Below, in pieces: positions 49,127 to 61,908 of a DNA stretch of 64,000 nt. The number at the start of each line of letters is the position of its first letter. Within the stretch, counting starts at the first letter, position 1. The DNA comes from an uncultured Candidatus Saccharibacteria bacterium (GTDB lineage: Bacteria; Patescibacteriota; Minisyncoccia; Phycocordibacterales; CAYGLL01): the NCBI GenBank assembly GCA_964350935.1, contig CAYGLL010000004.1, positions 9,267 to 73,266 on the forward strand, read 5' to 3'. Position numbers and translations under genes: made by a program. The notes beneath the pieces were generated by a model that ran no database searches, was not told where the DNA came from, and worked only from the letters and a program-made list of their open reading frames with translations.

Positions 49127-49567
49127 TTAGACCGAATTAGCTTCTACTATAGTGTCGGTTAGAAATTCCTGAATTGATTTAATAACAGAAGTTTTTTCTG
49201 CCGGATCACTTGCGGCGACATTTTTTGCGATAGTATATATCATGGTATTTGTGGCTTTAATCCACTTTCCATTTTGATCAAGAAAATAGAGAAGTGCCGT
49301 AACCGCAACGCGTTTATTGCCATTCTGAAAGGGGTGATTTTTTATCATCAAATAGAAAAGAATCGCCGATTTCTCGATTAGTCCTTTGTAGAGGCTTTTT
49401 CGCTGAAATGTTTGAAATGGAGTTGCTAAACAGCTTTCAAGAACCTGCGGAAATCGAGTATTAAATTCTGGAATGGGTTCATTCCACTCCATCAGTTCTT
49501 TAGCAAGCTGATGTGCTACATACTCAACTTCGACAATTTTGATCCTGTGTATGTTTCTCCGTCCCAT
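49127..49567 (-). CDS. doc: Doc (death-on-curing) Fic-family toxin
   Basis: Fic/Doc core motif HPFQNGNKRVAVTAL. Confidence 0.75.
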   Translation of the reverse strand: MGRRNIHRIKIVEVEYVAHQLAKELMEWNEPIPEFNTRFPQVLESCLATPFQTFQRKSLYKGLIEKSAILFYLMIKNHPFQNGNKRVAVTALLYFLDQNGKWIKATNTMIYTIAKNVAASDPAEKTSVIKSIQEFLTDTIVEANSV

Positions 49568-49568
49568 A

Positions 49569-49844
49569 TTATTCCTTACCTAATTTGCGCAATGCTTCTC
49601 CATACTGGCGAACAACCCTTCCTACAGCTTTATCTATCTTTTCTTTTTTGTTTTCGGTAAGAAAATGCCCGAGAATAGACTCAAGTTCTACTCGTGGAAT
49701 GATATAGTTGCGGCCAATTTTTTGAGCTTTAATTTTGCCAGACTTAATTTTCTTAAATATTGCAATGCGGCTTACACCCAGTAATTGTGCAAGTTCCGGG
49801 GTCGAAAAATACTGTTTATTAGAATTACCCATATTGTTAGTCAT
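49569..49844 (-). CDS. helix-turn-helix DNA-binding antitoxin partner of Doc
   Basis: N-terminal HTH (FSTPELAQLLGVSRIAIFKKIKSGKI); stop overlaps the doc start by 1 nt. Confidence 0.6.
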   Translation of the reverse strand: MTNNMGNSNKQYFSTPELAQLLGVSRIAIFKKIKSGKIKAQKIGRNYIIPRVELESILGHFLTENKKEKIDKAVGRVVRQYGEALRKLGKE

Positions 49845-49888
49845 TTTTACAGGTTAACACAGGTTAACCTGTAATTCAATCTGTGGAT

Positions 49889-50224
49889 TTAGAAAATAGA
49901 GTTGCCAAGAGAAACTTCGGTTTGAGTTGTGAGATAGATGGTTTCGCCTTTATCATTCTGGACACCAAGAATAAGAACTTCAGATTTTTCCGGGCCCATT
50001 TGTTTGATTCCAAGGTTTACGACGGCCACGACCTGTTTTCCGATTAAGTCCTCTTTTGTGTAGTTTCGATAAGCACCACACGATACTTTTATCCCGATTT
50101 CTGGCCCAAGATCAACCGTAATCCGGTACGTCGGTTTCTTGGTCGCTGCGTCCTCGACATTAACTATCCTTGCTACTCGAATATCGAGTGCGTCGAAATT
50201 TTTGAATTCAGCGAAAGGTTTCAT
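49889..50224 (-). CDS. csaA: tRNA-binding protein (CsaA/Trbp111-like, EMAP/Myf OB-fold), copy 1
   Basis: LDIRVARIV.VE.....KKPTYRITVDLGPE...KVSCG; 111 aa. Confidence 0.7.
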   Translation of the reverse strand: MKPFAEFKNFDALDIRVARIVNVEDAATKKPTYRITVDLGPEIGIKVSCGAYRNYTKEDLIGKQVVAVVNLGIKQMGPEKSEVLILGVQNDKGETIYLTTQTEVSLGNSIF

Positions 50225-50240
50225 GCTAAATATAAATTAC

Positions 50241-51023
50241 TCATTCATCTTTACCGAAATCCTCAAACCTTTCGTTAAACATGTCCATATAATCATCATA
50301 CCCATGACTAGTAGCGCGAGCGCTCTCGACAGAATTTTTAATTGAGTCTGTATAAGTGCGCAGAGCATAATTCTTGATATGCTCAATTACTGCATCCCTT
50401 TGGATTGTGAACTGGTCTCCTTCCTCTTCATCCAGAAATGGTTTGATTTTCTTCAACGCAAAAGCCCAGGCATCTCTTTCTGATAAGAGTTGTCTTGCAA
50501 GATGGTCCACTAACTGAGTTGAATGCTTCTCAGGACCAAACTCTGCCTCTCCTTTTGCTTGCTCAATAATGTGACCTCCTTCGTGGAATAAGCCAAGTAT
50601 GGTTTTAGGTGCGGCAAGTTTCCCAAAAAGCACTATTCGTTTGCTGTCCGGATACACAATGTCACTATGGTCTGCCGCGGTTGTGTCGAAATAAACATTA
50701 TAGTCAGGTGGCACTATATCAAATAATTGTACGGAGATATTTTTATCCCTTCGAGATAGCGTAAATGTTTTTAGTCTCATGAGCGTATCAGGAGTTGGCT
50801 CGTGTGGTTGAAAAGGTTTTTTATCTTCTTGAGTTAGTGGTTCATAGGAAATCTCCAATTCAAACGGAGGATTTTCAATCTTAACGTCGCCGCCTTCATT
50901 TTGGTACGTAATTTCGCCAAATGGCTTTGAAAGAATTTCTTTTGCAGCAAAAAATTCCTCATTTGAGGTTTCGTCTTTGGGAATATGCTTGTTTAGATAT
51001 TCACTTGGAGATTCAGGTCTCAT
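50241..51023 (-). CDS. hypothetical protein with HExxH zinc-metallopeptidase-like motif
   Basis: GLFHEGGHIIE (HExxH) in predicted helical context; no signal peptide; no family recognised. Confidence 0.35.
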   Translation of the reverse strand: MRPESPSEYLNKHIPKDETSNEEFFAAKEILSKPFGEITYQNEGGDVKIENPPFELEISYEPLTQEDKKPFQPHEPTPDTLMRLKTFTLSRRDKNISVQLFDIVPPDYNVYFDTTAADHSDIVYPDSKRIVLFGKLAAPKTILGLFHEGGHIIEQAKGEAEFGPEKHSTQLVDHLARQLLSERDAWAFALKKIKPFLDEEEGDQFTIQRDAVIEHIKNYALRTYTDSIKNSVESARATSHGYDDYMDMFNERFEDFGKDE

Positions 51024-51058
51024 GCTATTTACATTCAGCTTGGGGTTTCATGAGTAAA

Positions 51059-51943
51059 TTATATCAATTCAGTTGTTTCCGATCTATTTACTAGATACAC
51101 GCTTATTAAAACCAGTGCCCCTCCGATGAGTTCTCGAAGCAGTGGGGCTTCTTTAAAAAGAAAAACGGAATACAAAAGCGCGAATATTGTTTCCAGTGTA
51201 AGGATGTTTGCAGCCACAATTACTTTCAATCTCTGAAATCCATAATTGGTAAGGAAAAGATTGGCGACGTTAAAAATAGCTCCTGCAAAGAGCGCGAGCA
51301 ATATAAAAGGTGTAAATTGATCGAGCGTAGGGGTTGGTTCGCCTAGAACAAGCGAAGTGATAAAAAGGAAAATTGCTCCCGCAAAAAACATAAAGGTAGT
51401 ACTTTCTTTGTTGTTGAGGTAGTCACTGTGCCATTTACGTGCAATGTAACTAAAATCAAAGGCAAGCATTGAAAGTAGCGCCATAACTTCGCCGTACCCA
51501 ATCTTGAAAGTTGAAAAATTAACGAGAGAAATAAGGAGTACACCGACAAAACCAATACAGACATACAATACGGTCTTGGTTTTAAGTCGTTCCCCCAAAA
51601 GAAAATATCCCATGATAGGAAGTAGTGGCAATGCCGCGATGAACGATGCATTTCCGTACTTCGTGTTGAGTAGGGCCTCGGTAAACAAGGTAACTCCAAG
51701 GTAAAGTGTAATTGACCGAAATATCAAAACCCCAAGATCGTTTTTAGAAAGATTTTTATATTTACTCCAACTAATGTCTCTAGAGAAAACAACGCAGGCA
51801 AGAAGAAAAGCTAAACCAATTCTCAAATACGTCTGTTCAAATAGTTCGAAGCTTGTCGCAAGATACCTCGCAAAGATTCCCATTGTTGCGAAGACAAAGG
51901 CAAGTACTACTAGTGCGACTACCCCTTTTTTATTTTCAGACAT
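51059..51943 (-). CDS. EamA-family (DMT superfamily) transporter
   Basis: 10 predicted TM helices in two 5-TM repeats. Confidence 0.65.
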   Translation of the reverse strand: MSENKKGVVALVVLAFVFATMGIFARYLATSFELFEQTYLRIGLAFLLACVVFSRDISWSKYKNLSKNDLGVLIFRSITLYLGVTLFTEALLNTKYGNASFIAALPLLPIMGYFLLGERLKTKTVLYVCIGFVGVLLISLVNFSTFKIGYGEVMALLSMLAFDFSYIARKWHSDYLNNKESTTFMFFAGAIFLFITSLVLGEPTPTLDQFTPFILLALFAGAIFNVANLFLTNYGFQRLKVIVAANILTLETIFALLYSVFLFKEAPLLRELIGGALVLISVYLVNRSETTELI

Positions 51944-51945
51944 AA

Positions 51946-52281
51946 TTAGAAAATTGAATTTCCTAGCGGGACTTCGGTTTGTGGGGTGAGATAGATGGTT
52001 TCGTCTTTGTCGTTTTGGACGCCGAGAATAAGGACCTCGGACTTTTCCGGGCCCATTTGCTTGGTGCCAAGGTTAATGACACAAATGATCTGCTTTCCAA
52101 TGAGGTCTTCCTTTGCATAGTTTCGATACGCACCACAGGATACTTTTGTCCCGATCTCAGGGCCAAGATCAACGGTAATGCGATATGTTGGCTTTTTGGT
52201 CGCCGCATCCTCGACATTCACGATCTTCCCTACCCGAATATCGAGTGCGTCAAAGTTTTTAAATTCAGCAAGAGGTTTCAT
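51946..52281 (-). CDS. csaA: tRNA-binding protein (CsaA/Trbp111-like), copy 2
   Basis: roughly 90% aa identity to copy 1 (49889..50224); nucleotide identity roughly 85%. Confidence 0.7.
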   Translation of the reverse strand: MKPLAEFKNFDALDIRVGKIVNVEDAATKKPTYRITVDLGPEIGTKVSCGAYRNYAKEDLIGKQIICVINLGTKQMGPEKSEVLILGVQNDKDETIYLTPQTEVPLGNSIF

Positions 52282-52811
52282 TTATACTTATCTGGAATTT
52301 TAGCTTTTAAATATGGGGAGTAATATCGGCCATACTTCTGAAATATATCTGGTCGCTGCCAATCGCTTGGTGTAATGAGTTCTCGGCAAGCTCGTGATTT
52401 GCAATTGCATTTGAACGGATCGAAACATGTTTGACTAAATGCGTAATCCCAAGCAATTTCAACGTCAGGTTCTATATCTTCTATAGCAATGATTGTTATT
52501 GTGTCCCGGAATCCGGCGTTTGGATCGCACGCATGATTTATGGTTGCGGTGAGTTCAAGATCTTCTGGCGTTGGTGCCATTAAAAAATTTTCATCAATGT
52601 CGAGTGGTATATTGTCAACAACATAATCCATAAGTTTGTTGTATTTTTCAATGTCTGATTTCGGTACGACAACTCCACCGGTGACTCGAAGTATTTCCCC
52701 TTTTGAAATAAATTCCCTTGCAAAAAGACCCCTAGCACAAATACGAGATTTACGAACCTCAGTCTTAGGATTAAGCCATCTATGCTGCCAAATTTTGTGA
52801 AAATCCTCCAT
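52278..52811 (-). CDS. SET-domain protein (putative lysine methyltransferase) with post-SET Cys cluster
   Basis: ARGLFAREFISKGEIL (N-SET GxG region), INHACDPN (NHSCxPN signature), ..IEPDVEIAWDY (ELxxDY-like), post-SET CNCKSRAC. Confidence 0.7.
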   Translation of the reverse strand: MEDFHKIWQHRWLNPKTEVRKSRICARGLFAREFISKGEILRVTGGVVVPKSDIEKYNKLMDYVVDNIPLDIDENFLMAPTPEDLELTATINHACDPNAGFRDTITIIAIEDIEPDVEIAWDYAFSQTCFDPFKCNCKSRACRELITPSDWQRPDIFQKYGRYYSPYLKAKIPDKYK

Positions 52812-52812
52812 A

Positions 52813-53751
52813 TTAGTTCACCTTATATTCGTCTTTTCCTGTTTTGAGCAGATTGATGAGGGATTTAGTCGCGGCGTCGCTCGTGGTTTTGAGTTCGTTA
52901 AAAGTATTGAACGCGGTTGAGGTGTTCGAACAGTACCAGGTGCTTATCGGCAATTCTTTGGAGCTTGGGTCCGTGAGCGGATGATCCGACGCGGCACGTA
53001 GTCGGCCGCTTTTGAGTTCCTTAAGAAGCGCGTTCTCATCAGTAATAACGGCATTCACAAAAGTAACGAGAAGCGAGCCGTCTTTCATAAGAGCGAACTC
53101 TTTCGCGCCCAAAAGATTATCCGGAGCGTCCTTAGAAACGCAGAGGTATACGATATCGCTCTCTTTAAGCAGGTTTTCGAGTGTGGCATACGAAATGCCA
53201 AGTTCTTTTTCACGCTCCTCGTGTCGGTGTCGGCTGTAATACTGAATTTTTCCGGGGCGGAATGGCTGAAGCATTTTCGTGATTTGGCTACCAATCCTAC
53301 CCAGTCCGATTATGCCGATGTTTTGTCCCTCGATTCCTTTGGTCGTGAAGAATTTCTTTGTTCCGCTAGGGCCAAGATCGAACAGGTTTCTTTGCATGGC
53401 AAGCGTTGCAGCAAGAGCCCACTCCGATACGGCAAAGGTCGGTGCGTCGGGTGTGTTCGCGATGGCAATCCCCTTTTTGGTGACATACTCCCAATTCAAA
53501 ATATATTCTTTGTACCCAATGCCCGTAAAGACCATTGCTTTGAGCGCATCCGCCGCGTCGACAATCTTATTCGTGGTTTTCTCGATCCCACCGATGATAT
53601 AGCCGACTTTGCCTTTTATCGCTTCGATAAGCTGGTCCTCCGATGCCGTAGGTGTGTCGAGCCGTTCTATCTCGTAGCCAGCGTCCGTAAGCATCTTTTC
53701 ATGCTCTTTGAATATAAACAGCGAGTCCGTGATTAGAATTTTAGGTTTCAT
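52813..53751 (-). CDS. D-isomer-specific 2-hydroxyacid dehydrogenase family protein
   Basis: NAD-binding GIIGLGRIG Rossmann motif; two-domain length; catalytic region partially divergent. Confidence 0.65.
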   Translation of the reverse strand: MKPKILITDSLFIFKEHEKMLTDAGYEIERLDTPTASEDQLIEAIKGKVGYIIGGIEKTTNKIVDAADALKAMVFTGIGYKEYILNWEYVTKKGIAIANTPDAPTFAVSEWALAATLAMQRNLFDLGPSGTKKFFTTKGIEGQNIGIIGLGRIGSQITKMLQPFRPGKIQYYSRHRHEEREKELGISYATLENLLKESDIVYLCVSKDAPDNLLGAKEFALMKDGSLLVTFVNAVITDENALLKELKSGRLRAASDHPLTDPSSKELPISTWYCSNTSTAFNTFNELKTTSDAATKSLINLLKTGKDEYKVN

Positions 53752-53917
53752 TTGAAAACGGAGTTATTTCTCCACATTTGAGATTGTAACAGCGGATTAC
53801 TGTTTCAGCAGGAAGTGCTGTATATTTACCACGCGAATTTGTATCGCCGATCTTTACTTCCGCAGTAGTCTCTATTAAGGCATTATCACTTTTACATTTC
53901 GGACAAGTTGCTTTCAT
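53741..53917 (-). CDS. zinc-ribbon mini-protein (58 aa), translationally coupled to dehydrogenase gene
   Basis: hand translation MKATCPKCKSDN...IRCYNLKCGEITPFSNET with CPKC...C..LKC pairs; stop overlaps the downstream ATG; below the ORF-track length cutoff. Confidence 0.4.
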   Translation of the reverse strand: MKATCPKCKSDNALIETTAEVKIGDTNSRGKYTALPAETVIRCYNLKCGEITPFSNET

Positions 53918-53921
53918 ATTA

Positions 53922-54275
53922 TTATTTACATTGAATAAATTGTAGGATAAATGTCAGGGCCGAGATAATGATGGCAACCACAGAAAGCCAAAAAGCATTT
54001 TTTGAGTTCTGTCGCGCCTCCTTCAATTCATCGTAGTCTGTTACTTTTGAGACCAGGTCAAGTGGTGGAATCCATGAGCCGCCCCTTCCAGTTCGAGAGT
54101 AATTTCGTCCGGCTGGCGCTTGAAGCTCTTCCTCGATAAATTGGTTGAAATGACCCTCACTAATCGTGTAATTATTTTTTAGATAATTTTTCAGTTCTTC
54201 AAATTGAAATCCCTTTTCAGAGTTATCGACACAATAACGAGCTGCAGCAATTTGCCAAGGTTCTTTTTTTGACAT
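53922..54275 (-). CDS. hypothetical protein with C-terminal TM anchor
   Basis: ORF; no family recognised. Confidence 0.35.
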   Translation of the reverse strand: MSKKEPWQIAAARYCVDNSEKGFQFEELKNYLKNNYTISEGHFNQFIEEELQAPAGRNYSRTGRGGSWIPPLDLVSKVTDYDELKEARQNSKNAFWLSVVAIIISALTFILQFIQCK

Positions 54276-54283
54276 CGAATTAA

Positions 54284-54808
54284 CTACTTTATCTTCTTCT
54301 CAAGTAAAAAGTCTAAGTGTCTTTGCAATTTCAGGTACCAAAGAATAAAACCAGTGACTGACAAAAACAGGCCCGCAATAGACATCATCTCATAAAGTTT
54401 TATTTGCCCCTTTGCCCGATTGAGTATATCAATGAAGTAATCGTGAGAAATTTTTTCTGAGTCGATTTCCCTCGCCAACCCAGAAAGACGGTCTGTTTCA
54501 GACGAGATGAGTTCAAACTGGTTCGCAAGTAATTCTTCAAATTTATACAAGTCTAACTCGCTATTGTTTTTATAGGCGTCAATTTTAAGTTGAGAGATCT
54601 TAATCATAGCTTCTGCCTGAGCACTTTTTATTTCAGAAGCAGCCATGCTTCTCGCAAGTTGCACGTGAGCAGTTTCTACTTCAAAATGCTTGGTGAGGAT
54701 TTTGTCCAGAAGTATTTGGGGAAGAACAACAGATAGGGTGATTAAGAACAGTCCAGTTATGGCAATAAACTTATATAAATTATCAGTAGGAATTTTCAGC
54801 GCATCCAT
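54284..54808 (-). CDS. hypothetical two-TM membrane protein with coiled coil
   Basis: ORF; TM helices near N and C termini. Confidence 0.35.
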   Translation of the reverse strand: MDALKIPTDNLYKFIAITGLFLITLSVVLPQILLDKILTKHFEVETAHVQLARSMAASEIKSAQAEAMIKISQLKIDAYKNNSELDLYKFEELLANQFELISSETDRLSGLAREIDSEKISHDYFIDILNRAKGQIKLYEMMSIAGLFLSVTGFILWYLKLQRHLDFLLEKKIK

Positions 54809-54820
54809 AATAGGCTCTGA

Positions 54821-55810
54821 CTAATACAACTTCGTGCCGAGGCGGGCGTGGACAAGGGTCATTTTCTTTTCGGCGATAGCGCGGGCTTTTTCGCCGCCAG
54901 CTTTGAGGACATCGAGAACCGCGGCGCGGTTGTGCTCGAGTTCACTGCGGCGGTTACGAAGTGGAGTTACGAATTTAATGAGATCGGCGATAAGAGCCTC
55001 TTTGAGGTCTTTGTACTTTCCTCGTTTGTTGACATAGAGTTTCTCAAGTTCAGCTTCGGGACGGAACAGTTTGTGTATCTCGTAGACGTTGGTCGGTGTG
55101 TCTCCAGATGAGTCGGTAACGATCGACATGACGAGTTTCTTTATCTCCTCGTCGGTCGCAAACAGTGGGATTGTATTTTTGTAGCTCTTGGACATCTTCT
55201 GGCCATCAATTCCCGGAACAGTCGCAACATCGGCGAAGATCATCGGCGCGGGCAGGCGGAATGTCTCACCAAAAATACGATTGAATTTTTCGGCCGTGTC
55301 GCGAGCAATCTCAATATGTTGTTTTTGATCTTGCCCCACCGGCACGACATCGGCGTCATACAGCAAAATATCCGCCGCCATGAGCATTGGGTAGTTGAAC
55401 GTGCCCACCGAAAGCTCTTTGTTCTTGGCTTCGGCGTCTTTGAAGGCGTGGGCGCGCATGAGGTATGGCATGGTCGTGATGCAGTCGAATATCCATGCAA
55501 GTTCGGCATGTGAGGCGATGTCGGATTGTTTGAAAATAGTGACCTTGTTCGGGTCGAGGCCGATAGCGAGGTAATCGAGAGCAACGCCCATGATCATCTC
55601 ACTCATCTCCTCTTTGTTCTGGACGCTCGTGAGGGCGTGGAGGTCGGCAATAAATATGTAGCAATCATACTTCTCTTGAAGTTCAACAAACTGCCTCATC
55701 GCGCCGAAATAATTGCCAATATGAGGCCTACCCGTGGGTTTGATCCCCGAGAGCATAGTCTTCTTAGACTCTGATTCCGATTTTATTGATTTGTCCGTTT
55801 TTGACGGCAT
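54821..55810 (-). CDS. trpS: tryptophanyl-tRNA synthetase
   Basis: HIGNY (HIGH) and KMSKS motifs; start placed at MPSKTDKS (55810) because the longer ORF would run through the upstream terminator hairpin; MLSGIKPTG at 55756 is an alternative start. Confidence 0.85.
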   Translation of the reverse strand: MPSKTDKSIKSESESKKTMLSGIKPTGRPHIGNYFGAMRQFVELQEKYDCYIFIADLHALTSVQNKEEMSEMIMGVALDYLAIGLDPNKVTIFKQSDIASHAELAWIFDCITTMPYLMRAHAFKDAEAKNKELSVGTFNYPMLMAADILLYDADVVPVGQDQKQHIEIARDTAEKFNRIFGETFRLPAPMIFADVATVPGIDGQKMSKSYKNTIPLFATDEEIKKLVMSIVTDSSGDTPTNVYEIHKLFRPEAELEKLYVNKRGKYKDLKEALIADLIKFVTPLRNRRSELEHNRAAVLDVLKAGGEKARAIAEKKMTLVHARLGTKLY

Positions 55811-55845
55811 GGCGAAATCGTAGCACAAAAGTGGCTTAGGATAAA
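55677..55845 (-). repeat. direct-repeat copy A: native trpS promoter region and first roughly 45 codons
   Basis: roughly 80-85% identical to 61630..61795 (for example ttgccaatatgagg..cccgtgggtttga..agcatagtcttcttagac..gatttgtccgtttttgacggcatg). Confidence 0.6.
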
Positions 55846-55851
55846 GATTTA

Positions 55852-55885
55852 AAAACACCCCTCGCATGTGCGAGGGGTGTTGTAG
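55852..55885 (-). terminator. Rho-independent terminator after C39-domain gene, immediately upstream of trpS
   Basis: acacccctcgca-tgtg-cgaggggtgt hairpin followed on minus strand by T-run. Confidence 0.6.
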
Positions 55886-55893
55886 TGAAGCAA

Positions 55894-57453
55894 TTACTTT
55901 TTCAGAAACCCTTTCGCTTCCCGCTCAAATTGCGGCAGCGATTTGAGTAGATTGGTGCGAGCGGACTGATTTTTTCGGATAGCGAGAAGCCACGATCCAA
56001 TCGGAGTGGAAGAGAATCTCCTCATCTGTCCAGATGACCAGTTTTCCTGCTTTCTTGAAAGCGGATCACACACCACGAAACCGTGCTGATTGTAACCTGA
56101 AACCACAACCGCATGAAGCATACCGCACATGCCGGCAAGAATGACTAGGTAGTCATCGTTCAAAAGTGAAGTAATGAGTTCGGGTGTAATCGGCACACCA
56201 TTTCTCACAACGGCACATGGACCACAATTATCAATGAAGCCTTGATACTCTGCCATGAGTGCCGAAAATGTTTCAGGATCAAGATAAGCGTTGCCATTTT
56301 GGAACATGCCGCTTTCGGAATGAATCAGTTGAGTTTCAAGTCCGTGGCAGTCAGCATACTTCTGTAATCCGGAGAAATGCGTTCCGGGTATGAGTTTTGC
56401 CGCACTTGCCTCGTAAATGGCATGTTCTGTTTTTACTGAAAGTTCCGTCAGTTCCAAGTGGTGGAGAATCATAGTGAGGCTCGCCGCACCACAGGTGTAT
56501 GGAGTTGACTGTCGGAATGGAGTTACATTTTTGACCATAAGTTCCTTTCTATAAACGTGAAGTTTTTCTAATCCTTCGGCCACCTGATTATCGTCAAGAG
56601 CGTAGATCGCTCCTGTGTTCAGAATAATCTTCGTGTCGTTAAGTAGGGTCAGAACAGCCCGTCTCAGGACATACCCTGAAATCCCTACCAATGTAGTAAG
56701 CATGGAGTACTCGTCGGTATTGTCATAGGTAATTGTCCTGGCAAGGGCTGAGACGTACGGGCGTTCCATCGCAAAGTAAAAGTGCTCGACACGTTTCGCG
56801 ACGCTCCCCCGTGTCTTACTGATTCGCTCTCGGATAACCTTGGGCGAACTATTTCTGAAGGCACTCAAATTTGCAAGTCGTCCTTCAAAAATGAGTTTGT
56901 CACCCGCATGGTATTTCTGCAGAAGGTCCTCAGTTTTTTTGCGTTTGCGCCCAGCAAGAAACAGTTCCAGGTGATCGGCCATGTAGGTCGCCCAAAAAGA
57001 AGGAGTTGGTGGCGTCAGAAGAAGTGTTGCCTCTGCGTCACTCAACATCATTTTTTGTTGCAGCCAGCTGGTCCAATACTCGATGTGCTTTTTGATCGCG
57101 GCTGTGGGAATAAGTGTCGCCTGGTCGATTAAGGATGCGACAGCATACATTTTGCCAAGTTCCACGACGCGCTCCTCGGTTAGATCAAATACGGTGCGGG
57201 GCAGAAGATCATTCAGCGCAGGTTCAAGGAGTTCTTCAAAGAAAACATTGTGCCAGTTCCACCGGTTGACGAGTTCTTCATAAAATGTCACCGGATCTTT
57301 GCGGGCCTGTTCTTCAACTAAGTTCCGAAGTAAGGGGTTTGATTGTGCAAAGTAGCGATTCGCGCCCAACAGTTCTTTGGTCAGAATCTCATCGATACTG
57401 CCCTTCCAACCATCAGGAATAAGTACGGATTTACGGTTTTTGGGTGTATTCAT
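55894..57453 (-). CDS. protein with C-terminal C39-like papain-fold cysteine peptidase domain and uncharacterised N-terminal domain
   Basis: C-terminal Q..TCGAASLTMIL (Gln oxyanion/Cys), H (LHAVVVSG) and D (VVCDP) spacing typical of C39 double-glycine leader peptidases; N-terminal 300 aa unassigned. Confidence 0.55.
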   Translation of the reverse strand: MNTPKNRKSVLIPDGWKGSIDEILTKELLGANRYFAQSNPLLRNLVEEQARKDPVTFYEELVNRWNWHNVFFEELLEPALNDLLPRTVFDLTEERVVELGKMYAVASLIDQATLIPTAAIKKHIEYWTSWLQQKMMLSDAEATLLLTPPTPSFWATYMADHLELFLAGRKRKKTEDLLQKYHAGDKLIFEGRLANLSAFRNSSPKVIRERISKTRGSVAKRVEHFYFAMERPYVSALARTITYDNTDEYSMLTTLVGISGYVLRRAVLTLLNDTKIILNTGAIYALDDNQVAEGLEKLHVYRKELMVKNVTPFRQSTPYTCGAASLTMILHHLELTELSVKTEHAIYEASAAKLIPGTHFSGLQKYADCHGLETQLIHSESGMFQNGNAYLDPETFSALMAEYQGFIDNCGPCAVVRNGVPITPELITSLLNDDYLVILAGMCGMLHAVVVSGYNQHGFVVCDPLSRKQENWSSGQMRRFSSTPIGSWLLAIRKNQSARTNLLKSLPQFEREAKGFLKK

Positions 57454-61834: not shown

Positions 61835-61908
61835 TGGCAGGCACGGAAGGAATCGAACCCTCGGTAAGGATTTTGGAGATCCCTGGTTTACCACTAACCG
61901 ACGTGCCC
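61835..61908 (-). tRNA. tRNA-Trp (anticodon CCA)
   Basis: hand fold of GGGCACGTCGGTTAGTGGTAAACCAGGGATCTCCAAAATCCTTACCGAGGGTTCGATTCCTTCCGTGCCTGCCA: 7-bp acceptor stem (G1-U72 wobble), D-arm GGTT/AACC, anticodon loop CTCCAAA (U33, C34C35A36, A37), T-arm GAGGG-TTCGATT-CCTTC, discriminator G73, encoded CCA. Confidence 0.8.

What the first reader, a model, noticed from the sequence alone, without database searches (positions are those of the whole stretch)
52278..53917. SET-domain protein in an operon-like array with a zinc-ribbon mini-protein and a 2-hydroxyacid dehydrogenase
A canonical SET fold (NHxCxPN, post-SET CxCxxxxC) occurs in a bacterium with a small genome. Bacterial SET proteins are sporadic and often target host histones or nucleoid proteins. 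It is tightly packed (1-4 nt spacings) with a CxxC...CxxC 58-aa protein and a dehydrogenase. The mini-protein was missed by the ORF track and its stop overlaps the next ATG.
Basis: partly seen in the sequence, partly recalled or inferred. Interest (0 to 1): 0.6.

Follow-up and report, generated by a model that had tools for sequence, protein, structure and literature searches.

The report
Stand-alone SET methyltransferase in a CPR bacterium
This is a genuine, catalytically intact-looking SET-domain methyltransferase gene in a small-genome (CPR, probably Saccharibacteria) bacterium, but it belongs to a widespread, already annotated bacterial family, and nothing beyond tight gene packing links it to its neighbours.

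Summary

The operon reading does not hold. In 166 other loci carrying a family member, none has a homologue of the mini-protein. None has a close homologue of the dehydrogenase-like gene; one has a 26%-identical paralogue. Nine contexts of close (59-70%) homologues all differ. SET has the lowest GC3 of 69 window ORFs (0.30), while the dehydrogenase-like gene is among the highest (0.56).

The family occurs in at least 534 species genomes, mostly free-living Chloroflexota, Hyphomicrobium and Myxococcota. That argues against a host-histone effector.

The 58-aa ORF is real. It has three 60-61-aa homologues with four invariant Cys, in the pattern CxxC...CxxxxC rather than CxxC...CxxC. It is unlinked to SET or the dehydrogenase elsewhere.

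The "2-hydroxyacid dehydrogenase" belongs to a divergent CPR family that lacks the canonical catalytic Arg and His.

Verdict: a new member of a known kind, substrate unknown, low to moderate interest.

The parts
52278..52811 (-). SET-domain protein gene (177 aa); the stop TGA overlaps the next ATG (ATGA)
52518..52538 (-). NHxCxPN motif (N92 H93 A C95 D P97 N98): SAM contact and one Zn ligand
   Evidence: Sequence read. N92, H93, C95, P97 and N98 are invariant in 32 homologues. The motif aligns to MLL1 NHSCEPN.
52443..52460 (-). ExxxDY motif (E118 I A W121 D122 Y123): catalytic Tyr; W121 sits where MLL1 has its first Tyr of TYDY
   Evidence: E118 and D122 are invariant and Y123 is conserved in at least 90%. 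The motif aligns to MLL1 ELTYDY.
52386..52409 (-). post-SET CxCxxxxC (C135 N C137 KSRA C142)
   Evidence: C135, C137 and C142 are invariant. The motif aligns to MLL1 CNCGAKKC.
52281..52370 (-). family-specific C-terminal helical extension (aa 148-177; D150 W151 ... Y163 Y/F164 S P Y167 L168)
   Evidence: W151 is invariant; D150, F164, Y167 and L168 are conserved in at least 90%. The model shows helices at 148-152, 154-163 and 166-169 with pLDDT about 95. PDB SET domains do not cover it: at most 141 of 177 residues align.
52813..53751 (-). 2-Hacid_dh-fold protein (312 aa), a divergent CPR family; neighbour only, not functionally linked
   Evidence: Pfam PF02826 and PF00389 match. NCBIfam scores are far below every equivalog cutoff. 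At least 552 homologues, the best-matching listed ones at 55-67% identity; those that carry a source name are CPR/Patescibacteria, with one stray label. The catalytic Arg position is N233 and the family has no conserved C-terminal His. GC3 is 0.559.
53741..53917 (-). 58-aa four-Cys mini-protein (C5xxC8 ... C43xxxxC48); overlaps the next gene by 11 nt
   Evidence: ORF. Exhaustive HMMER finds three 60-61-aa homologues (E=7.6e-9 to 5e-5) with all four Cys invariant. No Pfam or NCBIfam family matches. The single-sequence AF2 model is all-beta but has pLDDT 54.
51946..52281 (-). tRNA_bind/CsaA-like gene immediately downstream, start overlapping the SET stop
   Evidence: Pfam tRNA_bind E=5e-17. NCBIfam CsaA and tRNA-binding models match. 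The same SET-to-tRNA_bind adjacency is seen in only one other genome, L009.

Best explanation
ORF 52278-52811 (-) encodes a stand-alone, catalytically competent SET-domain, SAM-dependent methyltransferase. It is most probably a protein-lysine N-methyltransferase.

Mechanism, inferred from conserved residues and the model. SAM sits in the pocket made by the N-terminal RGLF / GG segments, N92-H93 and Y123. A Zn(Cys)4 cluster (C95 + C135/C137/C142) and a family-specific C-terminal helical extension (invariant W151) close the cofactor and substrate site. A substrate lysine enters the channel from the opposite face and receives the methyl group by SN2 transfer.

The gene is an accessory, horizontally mobile, single-gene unit. 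Its 1-nt spacing to a dehydrogenase-like gene, and its position after a small Cys4 protein, reflect the dense co-directional packing of a CPR genome and not a functional module. The target is most likely an endogenous cytoplasmic protein, such as a nucleoid or translation-associated protein, and not a host histone. The substrate is not identified.

Shown here: the domain, motifs, fold, family conservation and lack of conserved neighbours. Inferred: SAM and Zn binding, lysine specificity and an endogenous target.
For: Domain and fold:
- Pfam SET scores above the gathering threshold.
- The alignment to MLL1 covers all four motifs, including post-SET.
- The family profile against PDB gives E=3.9e-22.
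- The AF2 model has pLDDT 88.7 and pTM 0.84.
- Foldseek's top hits are MLL1-4, ASH1L, NSD and SETD2 at probability 1.00.

Purifying selection on catalytic residues:
- N92, H93, C95, P97, N98, E118, D122, C135, C137, C142, R143 and W151 are invariant over 32 homologues down to 33% identity.

Stand-alone and accessory:
- Of 166 other SET loci, none has a mini-protein homologue and one has a remote (26% identity) 2-Hacid_dh paralogue.
- No neighbour family is shared by more than 18 of 86 loci, which is lineage synteny within Anaerolineae.
- Nine contexts of 59-70%-identical homologues all differ.
- SET GC3 is 0.303, the lowest of 69 ORFs (mean 0.447, sd 0.071). The dehydrogenase-like gene has 0.559.

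Endogenous target:
- At least 534 species genomes carry the family, mostly free-living Anaerolineae/Chloroflexota (including cultured Ornatilinea apprima), Hyphomicrobium and Myxococcota.
- Precedents for endogenous substrates are cpnSET acting on Hc1 and Go1-SET acting on MC1-alpha (PMC3980110).
Confidence: 0.7

Rival explanations
1. The mini-protein, the dehydrogenase-like protein and SET form a functional operon. For example, they could form a small-molecule pathway in which a 2-oxo/2-hydroxy acid is reduced and then methylated, analogous to MTOB to MTHB to DMSHB in DMSP synthesis. Alternatively, the Zn-ribbon protein could be the SET substrate or a regulator.
For: The spacings are -11, 1 and -4 nt on one strand, and no promoter or terminator signal exceeds chance inside the array. 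The same arrangement recurs in two other assemblies of the same strain. A SET enzyme, BurB, does methylate a small molecule, and a 2-hydroxyacid intermediate exists in one DMSP pathway (PMC12542666).
Against: The linkage is found in no other genome. None of 166 SET loci has a mini-protein homologue, and only one has even a remote dehydrogenase paralogue. Dehydrogenase homologues sit in other contexts (GrpE/threonine dehydratase; NTPase). Mini-protein homologues also sit elsewhere. GC3 is sharply discordant between SET/mini (0.30/0.25) and the dehydrogenase-like gene (0.56). The tight packing extends over at least 10 unrelated genes. BurB itself is inactive on MTHB. The dehydrogenase-like protein lacks the canonical catalytic Arg and His.
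Confidence: 0.05
2. The SET protein is a secreted effector that methylates proteins of the host cell on which the CPR bacterium lives. This would be analogous to the nucleomodulins NUE, RomA/LegAS4, BtSET and BaSET.
Against: There is no N-terminal signal peptide or hydrophobic segment (the sequence begins MEDFHKIWQHRWLNPK...). The family is dominated by free-living bacteria with full-length 35-41%-identical homologues. The known hosts of Saccharibacteria are Actinobacteria, which have no histones (background knowledge). No secretion-system genes lie nearby.
Confidence: 0.1
3. The protein is a small-molecule methyltransferase like BurB (methionine S-methyltransferase), acting independently of its neighbours.
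Confidence: 0.08
4. The SET protein is a decaying or catalytically dead remnant in a reduced genome.
For: It has the lowest GC3 in the window, and it is an accessory gene.
Against: The ORF is intact and full length relative to homologues. Every catalytic and Zn-binding residue is conserved across 32 homologues. The model is confident.
Confidence: 0.03

Closest known systems
Eukaryotic Trithorax-group SET domains (yeast Set1/COMPASS, human MLL1/KMT2A)
   Different: This protein is a 177-aa single-domain protein with no N-terminal chromatin modules and no WRAD partners. It carries a family-specific, conserved 30-aa C-terminal helical extension that these structures do not cover. It has Trp121 where MLL1 has the first Tyr of TYDY. 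The organism has no histones.
Prokaryotic SET proteins with endogenous chromatin-protein substrates (C. pneumoniae cpnSET acting on Hc1; Methanosarcina mazei Go1-SET acting on MC1-alpha)
   Same: These are small stand-alone prokaryotic SET enzymes reported to methylate the cell's own DNA-binding proteins (PMC3980110). This is the working model preferred here.
   Different: No sequence comparison with them was made here. No Hc1 or MC1 homologue was sought, and no substrate is known for this family.
Secreted bacterial SET nucleomodulins (Legionella RomA/LegAS4, Chlamydia NUE, Burkholderia BtSET, Bacillus BaSET)
   Different: Those proteins are secreted into eukaryotic cells and act on histones (PMC10117894). 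Here there is no secretion signal, the family is mostly in free-living bacteria, and there is no eukaryotic host.
BurB (Burkholderia thailandensis methionine S-methyltransferase, PDB 9L4T)
   Different: BurB methylates a small molecule within a bur gene cluster (PMC12542666). Here similarity is weaker than to lysine methyltransferases, and no such cluster is present.
NCBI-annotated 'SET domain-containing protein-lysine N-methyltransferase' of Candidatus Saccharibacteria / Patescibacteria
   Same: These are direct homologues at 59-70% identity and the same length (P0006, P0013, P0023). This gene is simply another member.
   Different: There is no structural difference. The only particular feature is this strain's gene neighbourhood.

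Membership tests
SET-domain methyltransferases (Pfam PF00856) | Profile match above the curated threshold | tested here: met
   46.5 bits against a gathering threshold of 22.4, E=5.6e-12, covering profile positions 2-104 of 105.
SET-domain methyltransferases (Pfam PF00856) | NHxCxPN motif (SAM binding / pseudoknot strand) | tested here: met
   N92-H93-A-C95-D-P97-N98. N, H, C, P and N are invariant in 32 homologues.
SET-domain methyltransferases (Pfam PF00856) | ELxF/YDY motif with catalytic Tyr | tested here: met
   E118-I-A-W-D122-Y123. E and D are invariant and Y is conserved in at least 90%. The motif aligns to MLL1 ELTYDY.
SET-domain methyltransferases (Pfam PF00856) | N-terminal Gly-containing SAM-binding segment (xRGxG/RGLF) | tested here: met
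   A26-R-G28-L-F30 aligns to MLL1 GRGLF. G28 and G45 are at least 90% conserved and G46 is invariant in A1.
SET-domain methyltransferases (Pfam PF00856) | post-SET CxCxxxxC, forming a Zn(Cys)4 site with the Cys of NHxCxPN | tested here: met
   At sequence level, C95, C135, C137 and C142 are all invariant. Actual zinc binding is not testable with these tools.
SET-domain methyltransferases (Pfam PF00856) | SET beta-fold with knot-like C-terminal threading | tested here: inconclusive
SET-domain methyltransferases (Pfam PF00856) | SAM-dependent methylation of protein lysine | not testable with these tools
   This needs an enzyme assay. The alternative small-molecule chemistry (BurB) remains formally possible.
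Trithorax/COMPASS-type H3K4 methyltransferases | Activity within a WDR5-RbBP5-Ash2L-type complex on histone H3, with N-SET/Win flanking elements | tested here: not met
   The protein consists of the SET core plus a novel C-terminal extension only (177 aa). No flanking modules are present. The partner proteins were not searched for.
Secreted SET nucleomodulins | Secretion signal or dedicated secretion system, and a eukaryotic host with histones | tested here: not met
   The N-terminus is hydrophilic (sequence). The neighbours are TrpRS, tRNA_bind, EamA and similar. The family is mainly in free-living bacteria. Secretion was not tested experimentally.
BurB-type methionine S-methyltransferases | Closer similarity to BurB than to lysine methyltransferases, and a bur-like gene cluster (decarboxylase, aminotransferase, aldehyde dehydrogenase) | tested here: not met
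Conserved operon (mini-protein, dehydrogenase, SET) | Same-strand genes with short gaps or overlaps | tested here: met
   The gaps are 4, -11, 1 and -4 nt.
Conserved operon (mini-protein, dehydrogenase, SET) | Gene linkage conserved across genomes | tested here: not met
   None of 166 SET loci has the mini-protein and one has a remote dehydrogenase paralogue. The contexts of dehydrogenase and mini-protein homologues lack SET.
D-isomer-specific 2-hydroxyacid dehydrogenases | Two-domain fold with a Rossmann GxGxxG | tested here: met
   PF02826 scores 98 bits and PF00389 46 bits. GIIGLGRIG is at residues 146-154.
D-isomer-specific 2-hydroxyacid dehydrogenases | Catalytic Arg (xxRGxxxD) and the His-Glu/Asp dyad | tested here: not met
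   The Arg aligns to N233, and this position is H/A/G/T/N in 30 family members. The Glu position is Asp. There is no conserved His in residues 225-312, and PDB alignments end near residue 258. All NCBIfam equivalog scores are far below cutoff.
Zinc-ribbon small proteins | Two Cys pairs on beta-hairpin knuckles that bind Zn | tested here: inconclusive
   C5xxC8 and C43xxxxC48 are invariant in 4 family members. The AF2 single-sequence model is all-beta but has pLDDT 54. No Pfam or NCBIfam family matches.

The most novel reading that the evidence does not exclude
In the Saccharibacteria clade, the SET enzyme may be an acquired regulator that methylates a component of the translation or tRNA-handling machinery. 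The candidate is the CsaA/tRNA_bind protein whose start codon overlaps the SET stop here; the same gene type also follows SET in one other Saccharibacteria genome (L009). Alternatively it may methylate a protein of the bacterial host. Either would be the first protein-methylation regulatory or effector system described in CPR bacteria. The evidence does not exclude this, but supports it only by one repeated adjacency.
Probability: 0.08. Interest if true: 0.6.

Novelty: new member of a known kind. Interest (0 to 1): 0.25.

Why it matters
What SET-domain methyltransferases do in bacteria that never meet histones is still an open question. Characterised cases are nearly all pathogen effectors. 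This gene shows that a compact, well-conserved SET family reaches into ultra-small CPR genomes as an accessory gene. The family has a distinctive C-terminal extension and spans Chloroflexota, Hyphomicrobium, Myxococcota, CPR and DPANN. A tractable 177-aa member could serve for substrate discovery. In itself the gene is an already annotated kind of protein, and the suggested operon is not real, so the finding is of modest importance.

Tried and rejected
1. Conserved-operon hypothesis, rejected. tblastn of the dehydrogenase-like protein, mini-protein, p117, p174, CsaA, EamA and p260 was run against 86 and then 175 fetched loci. All-vs-all clustering of 663 neighbouring ORFs was also done. No linkage appeared.
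2. A metagenome-contig scan with the single SET protein was meant to collect more close relatives. It returned only homologues of 44% identity or less over the best-matching segment (35% or less for near-full-length matches), because only the NHACDPN pattern matched widely. It was useful only as extra negative loci.
3. phmmer of the window proteins against my own neighbour-ORF set returned nothing. My crude ORF filter had discarded short overlapped ORFs, so tblastn was used instead.
4. The mini-protein search through the word index found only the protein itself. The exhaustive search found 3 real homologues. It also found 3 giant repeat proteins whose scores are sums of weak repeats with no aligned Cys, and these were rejected as spurious.
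5. The single-sequence AF2 model of the mini-protein had pLDDT 54 and was not used for fold search.
7. Anti-phage defence system: PADLOC gave no hit for SET, the dehydrogenase-like protein, the mini-protein, p117, p174 or p260. Only the nearby Fic protein hit candidate families.
8. Phage origin: the viral-contig scan gave only 11 distant hits at 42% identity or less.
9. Promoter and terminator scan: counts were at shuffle level and uninformative.
10. Rfam and tRNA scans found nothing in the region; the only hit is tRNA-Trp at 61835-61908.
11. Literature searches for SET with Saccharibacteria, Patescibacteria or CPR found no relevant paper.
Full report
**What is there.**
The region lies on the minus strand inside a long run of co-directional, tightly packed genes. 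The order, with gaps in nt, is:
- TrpRS (54821-55867), gap 12
- p174, a predicted membrane protein (54284-54808), gap 8
- p117 (53922-54275), gap 4
- the 58-aa mini-ORF (53741-53917), 11-nt overlap
- the 2-Hacid_dh-fold ORF (52813-53751), gap 1
- SET (52278-52811), 4-nt ATGA overlap
- a tRNA_bind/CsaA-like gene (51946-52281), gap 2
- EamA transporter (51059-51943), gap 35
- p260 (50241-51023), gap 16
- a second tRNA_bind paralogue (49889-50224)

The packed array, however, is much longer than three genes. The closest named SET homologues come from Candidatus Saccharibacteria/Patescibacteria. The named homologues of the dehydrogenase-like gene are also CPR. The window is therefore from a CPR bacterium, probably Saccharibacteria. 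This taxonomy is inferred from the homologues and was not tested directly.

**The SET protein is real and looks active.**
- Pfam SET scores 46.5 bits against a threshold of 22.4 (E=5.6e-12).
- The single sequence finds the MLL1/KMT2A SET domain in PDB at E=1.4e-7. The alignment pairs ARGLF with GRGLF, NHACDPN with NHSCEPN, EIAWDY with ELTYDY, and CNCKSRAC with CNCGAKKC.
- A 20-sequence family profile raises this to E=3.9e-22.
- In 32 homologues down to 33% identity, N92, H93, C95, P97, N98, E118, D122, C135, C137, C142, R143 and W151 are invariant, and Y123 is conserved in at least 90%.
- An AlphaFold2 model built on this alignment is confident (pLDDT 88.7, pTM 0.84).
- Foldseek's best PDB matches are MLL1-4, ASH1L, NSD1-3 and SETD2 at probability 1.00.
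- A family-specific feature is a conserved 30-residue C-terminal helical extension (D150-W151 ... Y163-Y/F164-S-P-Y167-L168). It is modelled at pLDDT about 95 and is not covered by any PDB SET domain.
- By the alignment, Trp121 occupies the position of the first Tyr of MLL1's TYDY. From background knowledge, that Tyr is MLL1's Phe/Tyr-switch residue. I draw no conclusion about product specificity.

**The operon reading fails.**
- I collected 166 independent loci carrying a family member: 6 metagenomic contigs, 80 GTDB species genomes and 80 further metagenome contigs.
- tblastn with the window's neighbours found no homologue of the mini-protein, p117 or p174. It found one remote (26% identity) 2-Hacid_dh paralogue (L151), and one tRNA_bind gene directly after SET (L009).
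- All-vs-all clustering of neighbouring ORFs found no family shared by more than 18 of 86 loci. The shared ones are lineage synteny inside Anaerolineae or Hyphomicrobium.
- Contexts of the close homologues (59-70% identity) all differ:
  - unknown/DEAD helicase
  - BipA/FUR
  - AAA_33/YecM
  - unknown/CHAP
  - unknown
  - Methyltransf_11
  - NmrA-like/tRNA_bind
  - PGA_cap/unknown
- Conversely, the nearest dehydrogenase homologues lie between GrpE and threonine dehydratase, or next to an NTPase.
- Mini-protein homologues lie beside a PNPOx-like gene, with RuvX and a tRNA_bind gene 0.6-1 kb further downstream.
- Only other assemblies of the same strain repeat the window's order.
- Composition agrees. 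SET has the lowest GC3 of 69 ORFs of at least 100 aa in the window (0.303; mean 0.447, sd 0.071) and the mini-ORF has 0.254. The dehydrogenase-like gene (0.559) and TrpRS (0.61) are at the high end.
- The three genes are therefore a mosaic of different histories, pressed together by a compact genome.
- Promoter and terminator pattern counts are at shuffle level and neither support nor refute co-transcription.

**Distribution and what it implies.**
- The genome scan confirmed at least 534 species genomes with a relative.
- Only about four are 60-65% identical (Saccharibacteria/Patescibacteria, including one short contig binned as Verrucomicrobiia).
- At 47-48% identity come Zambryskibacteria, a Nanoarchaeota MAG and an alphaproteobacterial MAG. 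A Paceibacterota MAG is at 39%.
- Below that is a large body of full-length 34-41% homologues in Anaerolineae/Chloroflexota (including cultured Ornatilinea apprima and a MAG assigned to Anaerolinea thermophila), Hyphomicrobium and Myxococcota.
- A family dominated by free-living bacteria, with an N-terminus that has no signal-peptide character, speaks against a host-histone effector of the NUE/RomA type (PMC10117894). It favours an endogenous substrate, as reported for cpnSET-Hc1 and Go1-SET-MC1-alpha (PMC3980110).
- NCBI already names members 'SET domain-containing protein-lysine N-methyltransferase'.
- I found no paper on SET proteins in Saccharibacteria, Patescibacteria or CPR.

**Rival chemistry.**
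BurB is a 172-aa stand-alone SET enzyme that S-methylates free methionine (PMC12542666). A small-molecule substrate therefore cannot be dismissed on fold alone. Several points argue against it here:
- No bur-like genes are nearby.
- BurB does not act on the 2-hydroxy acid MTHB.

I give this rival about 8%, and the version coupled to the neighbouring dehydrogenase about 5%.

**The mini-protein.**
- The word-indexed search found only the protein itself.
- The exhaustive HMMER search of 1.84 billion representatives found three 60-61-aa proteins at 40-44% identity (E=7.6e-9, 2.8e-8, 5.3e-5). M1, K2, C5, P6, K7, C8, C43, N45 and C48 are invariant.
- It is therefore a genuine, rare small protein with a CPKC...CxNxxC signature. 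The second pair is CxxxxC, not CxxC.
- Hits to three giant proteins are summed weak repeat matches with no aligned Cys and are spurious.
- It has no Shine-Dalgarno-like sequence.
- The single-sequence model is all-beta but unreliable (pLDDT 54). 'Zinc ribbon' therefore remains plausible but unproven.

**The 'dehydrogenase'.**
- Both 2-Hacid_dh Pfam domains and the Rossmann GIIGLGRIG are present.
- Every NCBIfam equivalog score is far below its cutoff, for example 119 against 455.
- In alignments to P. horikoshii PGDH and glyoxylate reductase and to E. coli SerA, the catalytic Arg of xxRGxxxD pairs with N233 and the catalytic Glu pairs with Asp. The alignments stop near residue 258, before the His strand.
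- In 30 family members (55-67% identity), the Arg position is H/A/G/T/N and no His is conserved in residues 225-312. E16-H17-E18, Y80-K81, R121, R252 and D256 are invariant.
- This is a large family (at least 552 homologues; those with a source name are CPR) of 2-HADH-fold proteins with a rearranged active site. Calling it a 2-hydroxyacid dehydrogenase is safe only at fold level.

**Verdict.**
The SET observation is correct and robust. The functional coupling to its neighbours is not supported. The most likely mechanism is a stand-alone, Zn-containing, SAM-dependent protein-lysine methyltransferase acting on an unidentified endogenous protein. It is carried as an accessory gene. This is a new member of a known, already annotated kind. 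The only lead toward something new is the SET-tRNA_bind adjacency, seen in the window and in one other Saccharibacteria genome. It is too thin to build on.

Noticed in passing
window 52813-53751 (-): The 2-Hacid_dh-fold protein belongs to a large family (at least 552 homologues; the listed best matches are 55-67% identical and the named ones are CPR). The family lacks the canonical catalytic Arg (N233 here; H/A/G/T/N across the family) and has no conserved C-terminal His. Instead, E16-H17-E18, Y80-K81, R121, R252 and D256 are invariant. It may be a rearranged active site or a non-dehydrogenase function.
   Followed up: partly
window 49889-50224 (-) and 51946-52281 (-): Two tRNA_bind/CsaA-like paralogues (111 aa each, about 88% aa and 80% nt identity, with similarity confined to the ORF) bracket an EamA transporter and a 260-aa protein that carries an HEGGH (HExxH-like) motif. 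This looks like an old tandem duplication kept under selection.
   Followed up: partly
window 52278-52281 and L009:5001-5891: A tRNA_bind gene directly follows SET in the window (ATGA overlap) and in one other Saccharibacteria genome (21-nt gap), although all other flanking genes differ. It is the only neighbour seen twice among the close homologues.
   Followed up: partly
window 49127-49844 (-): An HTH_17 (excisionase-like, 91 aa) gene and a Fic-domain (146 aa) gene form a pair just downstream of the array. The Fic protein matches PADLOC candidate-defence families PDC-S23/S05 (E=4.6e-21).
   Followed up: no
window 49800-54810: GC3 alternates strongly between adjacent genes: TrpRS 0.61, dehydrogenase-like 0.56 and CsaA_b 0.50, against SET 0.30, mini 0.25, p117 0.35, p260 0.34 and EamA 0.37. 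This suggests a mosaic of core and acquired genes within one co-directional string.
   Followed up: partly
window 53922-54808 (-): Two ORFs sit upstream of the mini-ORF: p117 (with a C-terminal hydrophobic segment) and p174. Neither has a Pfam or NCBIfam family above threshold, and neither has a homologue in any fetched locus.
   Followed up: no
window 55894-57453 (-): A 519-aa protein has a C-terminal papain-like Peptidase_C39-like domain (E about 1e-5) and a long unannotated N-terminal region.
   Followed up: no
L012 (Nanoarchaeota MAG), L011 (Zambryskibacteria), L032 (Alphaproteobacteria MAG): The nearest relatives of the Saccharibacteria SET clade outside it (47-48% identity) come from a DPANN archaeon, another CPR lineage and an alphaproteobacterial MAG. 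This hints at horizontal transfer among ultra-small symbionts.
   Followed up: no
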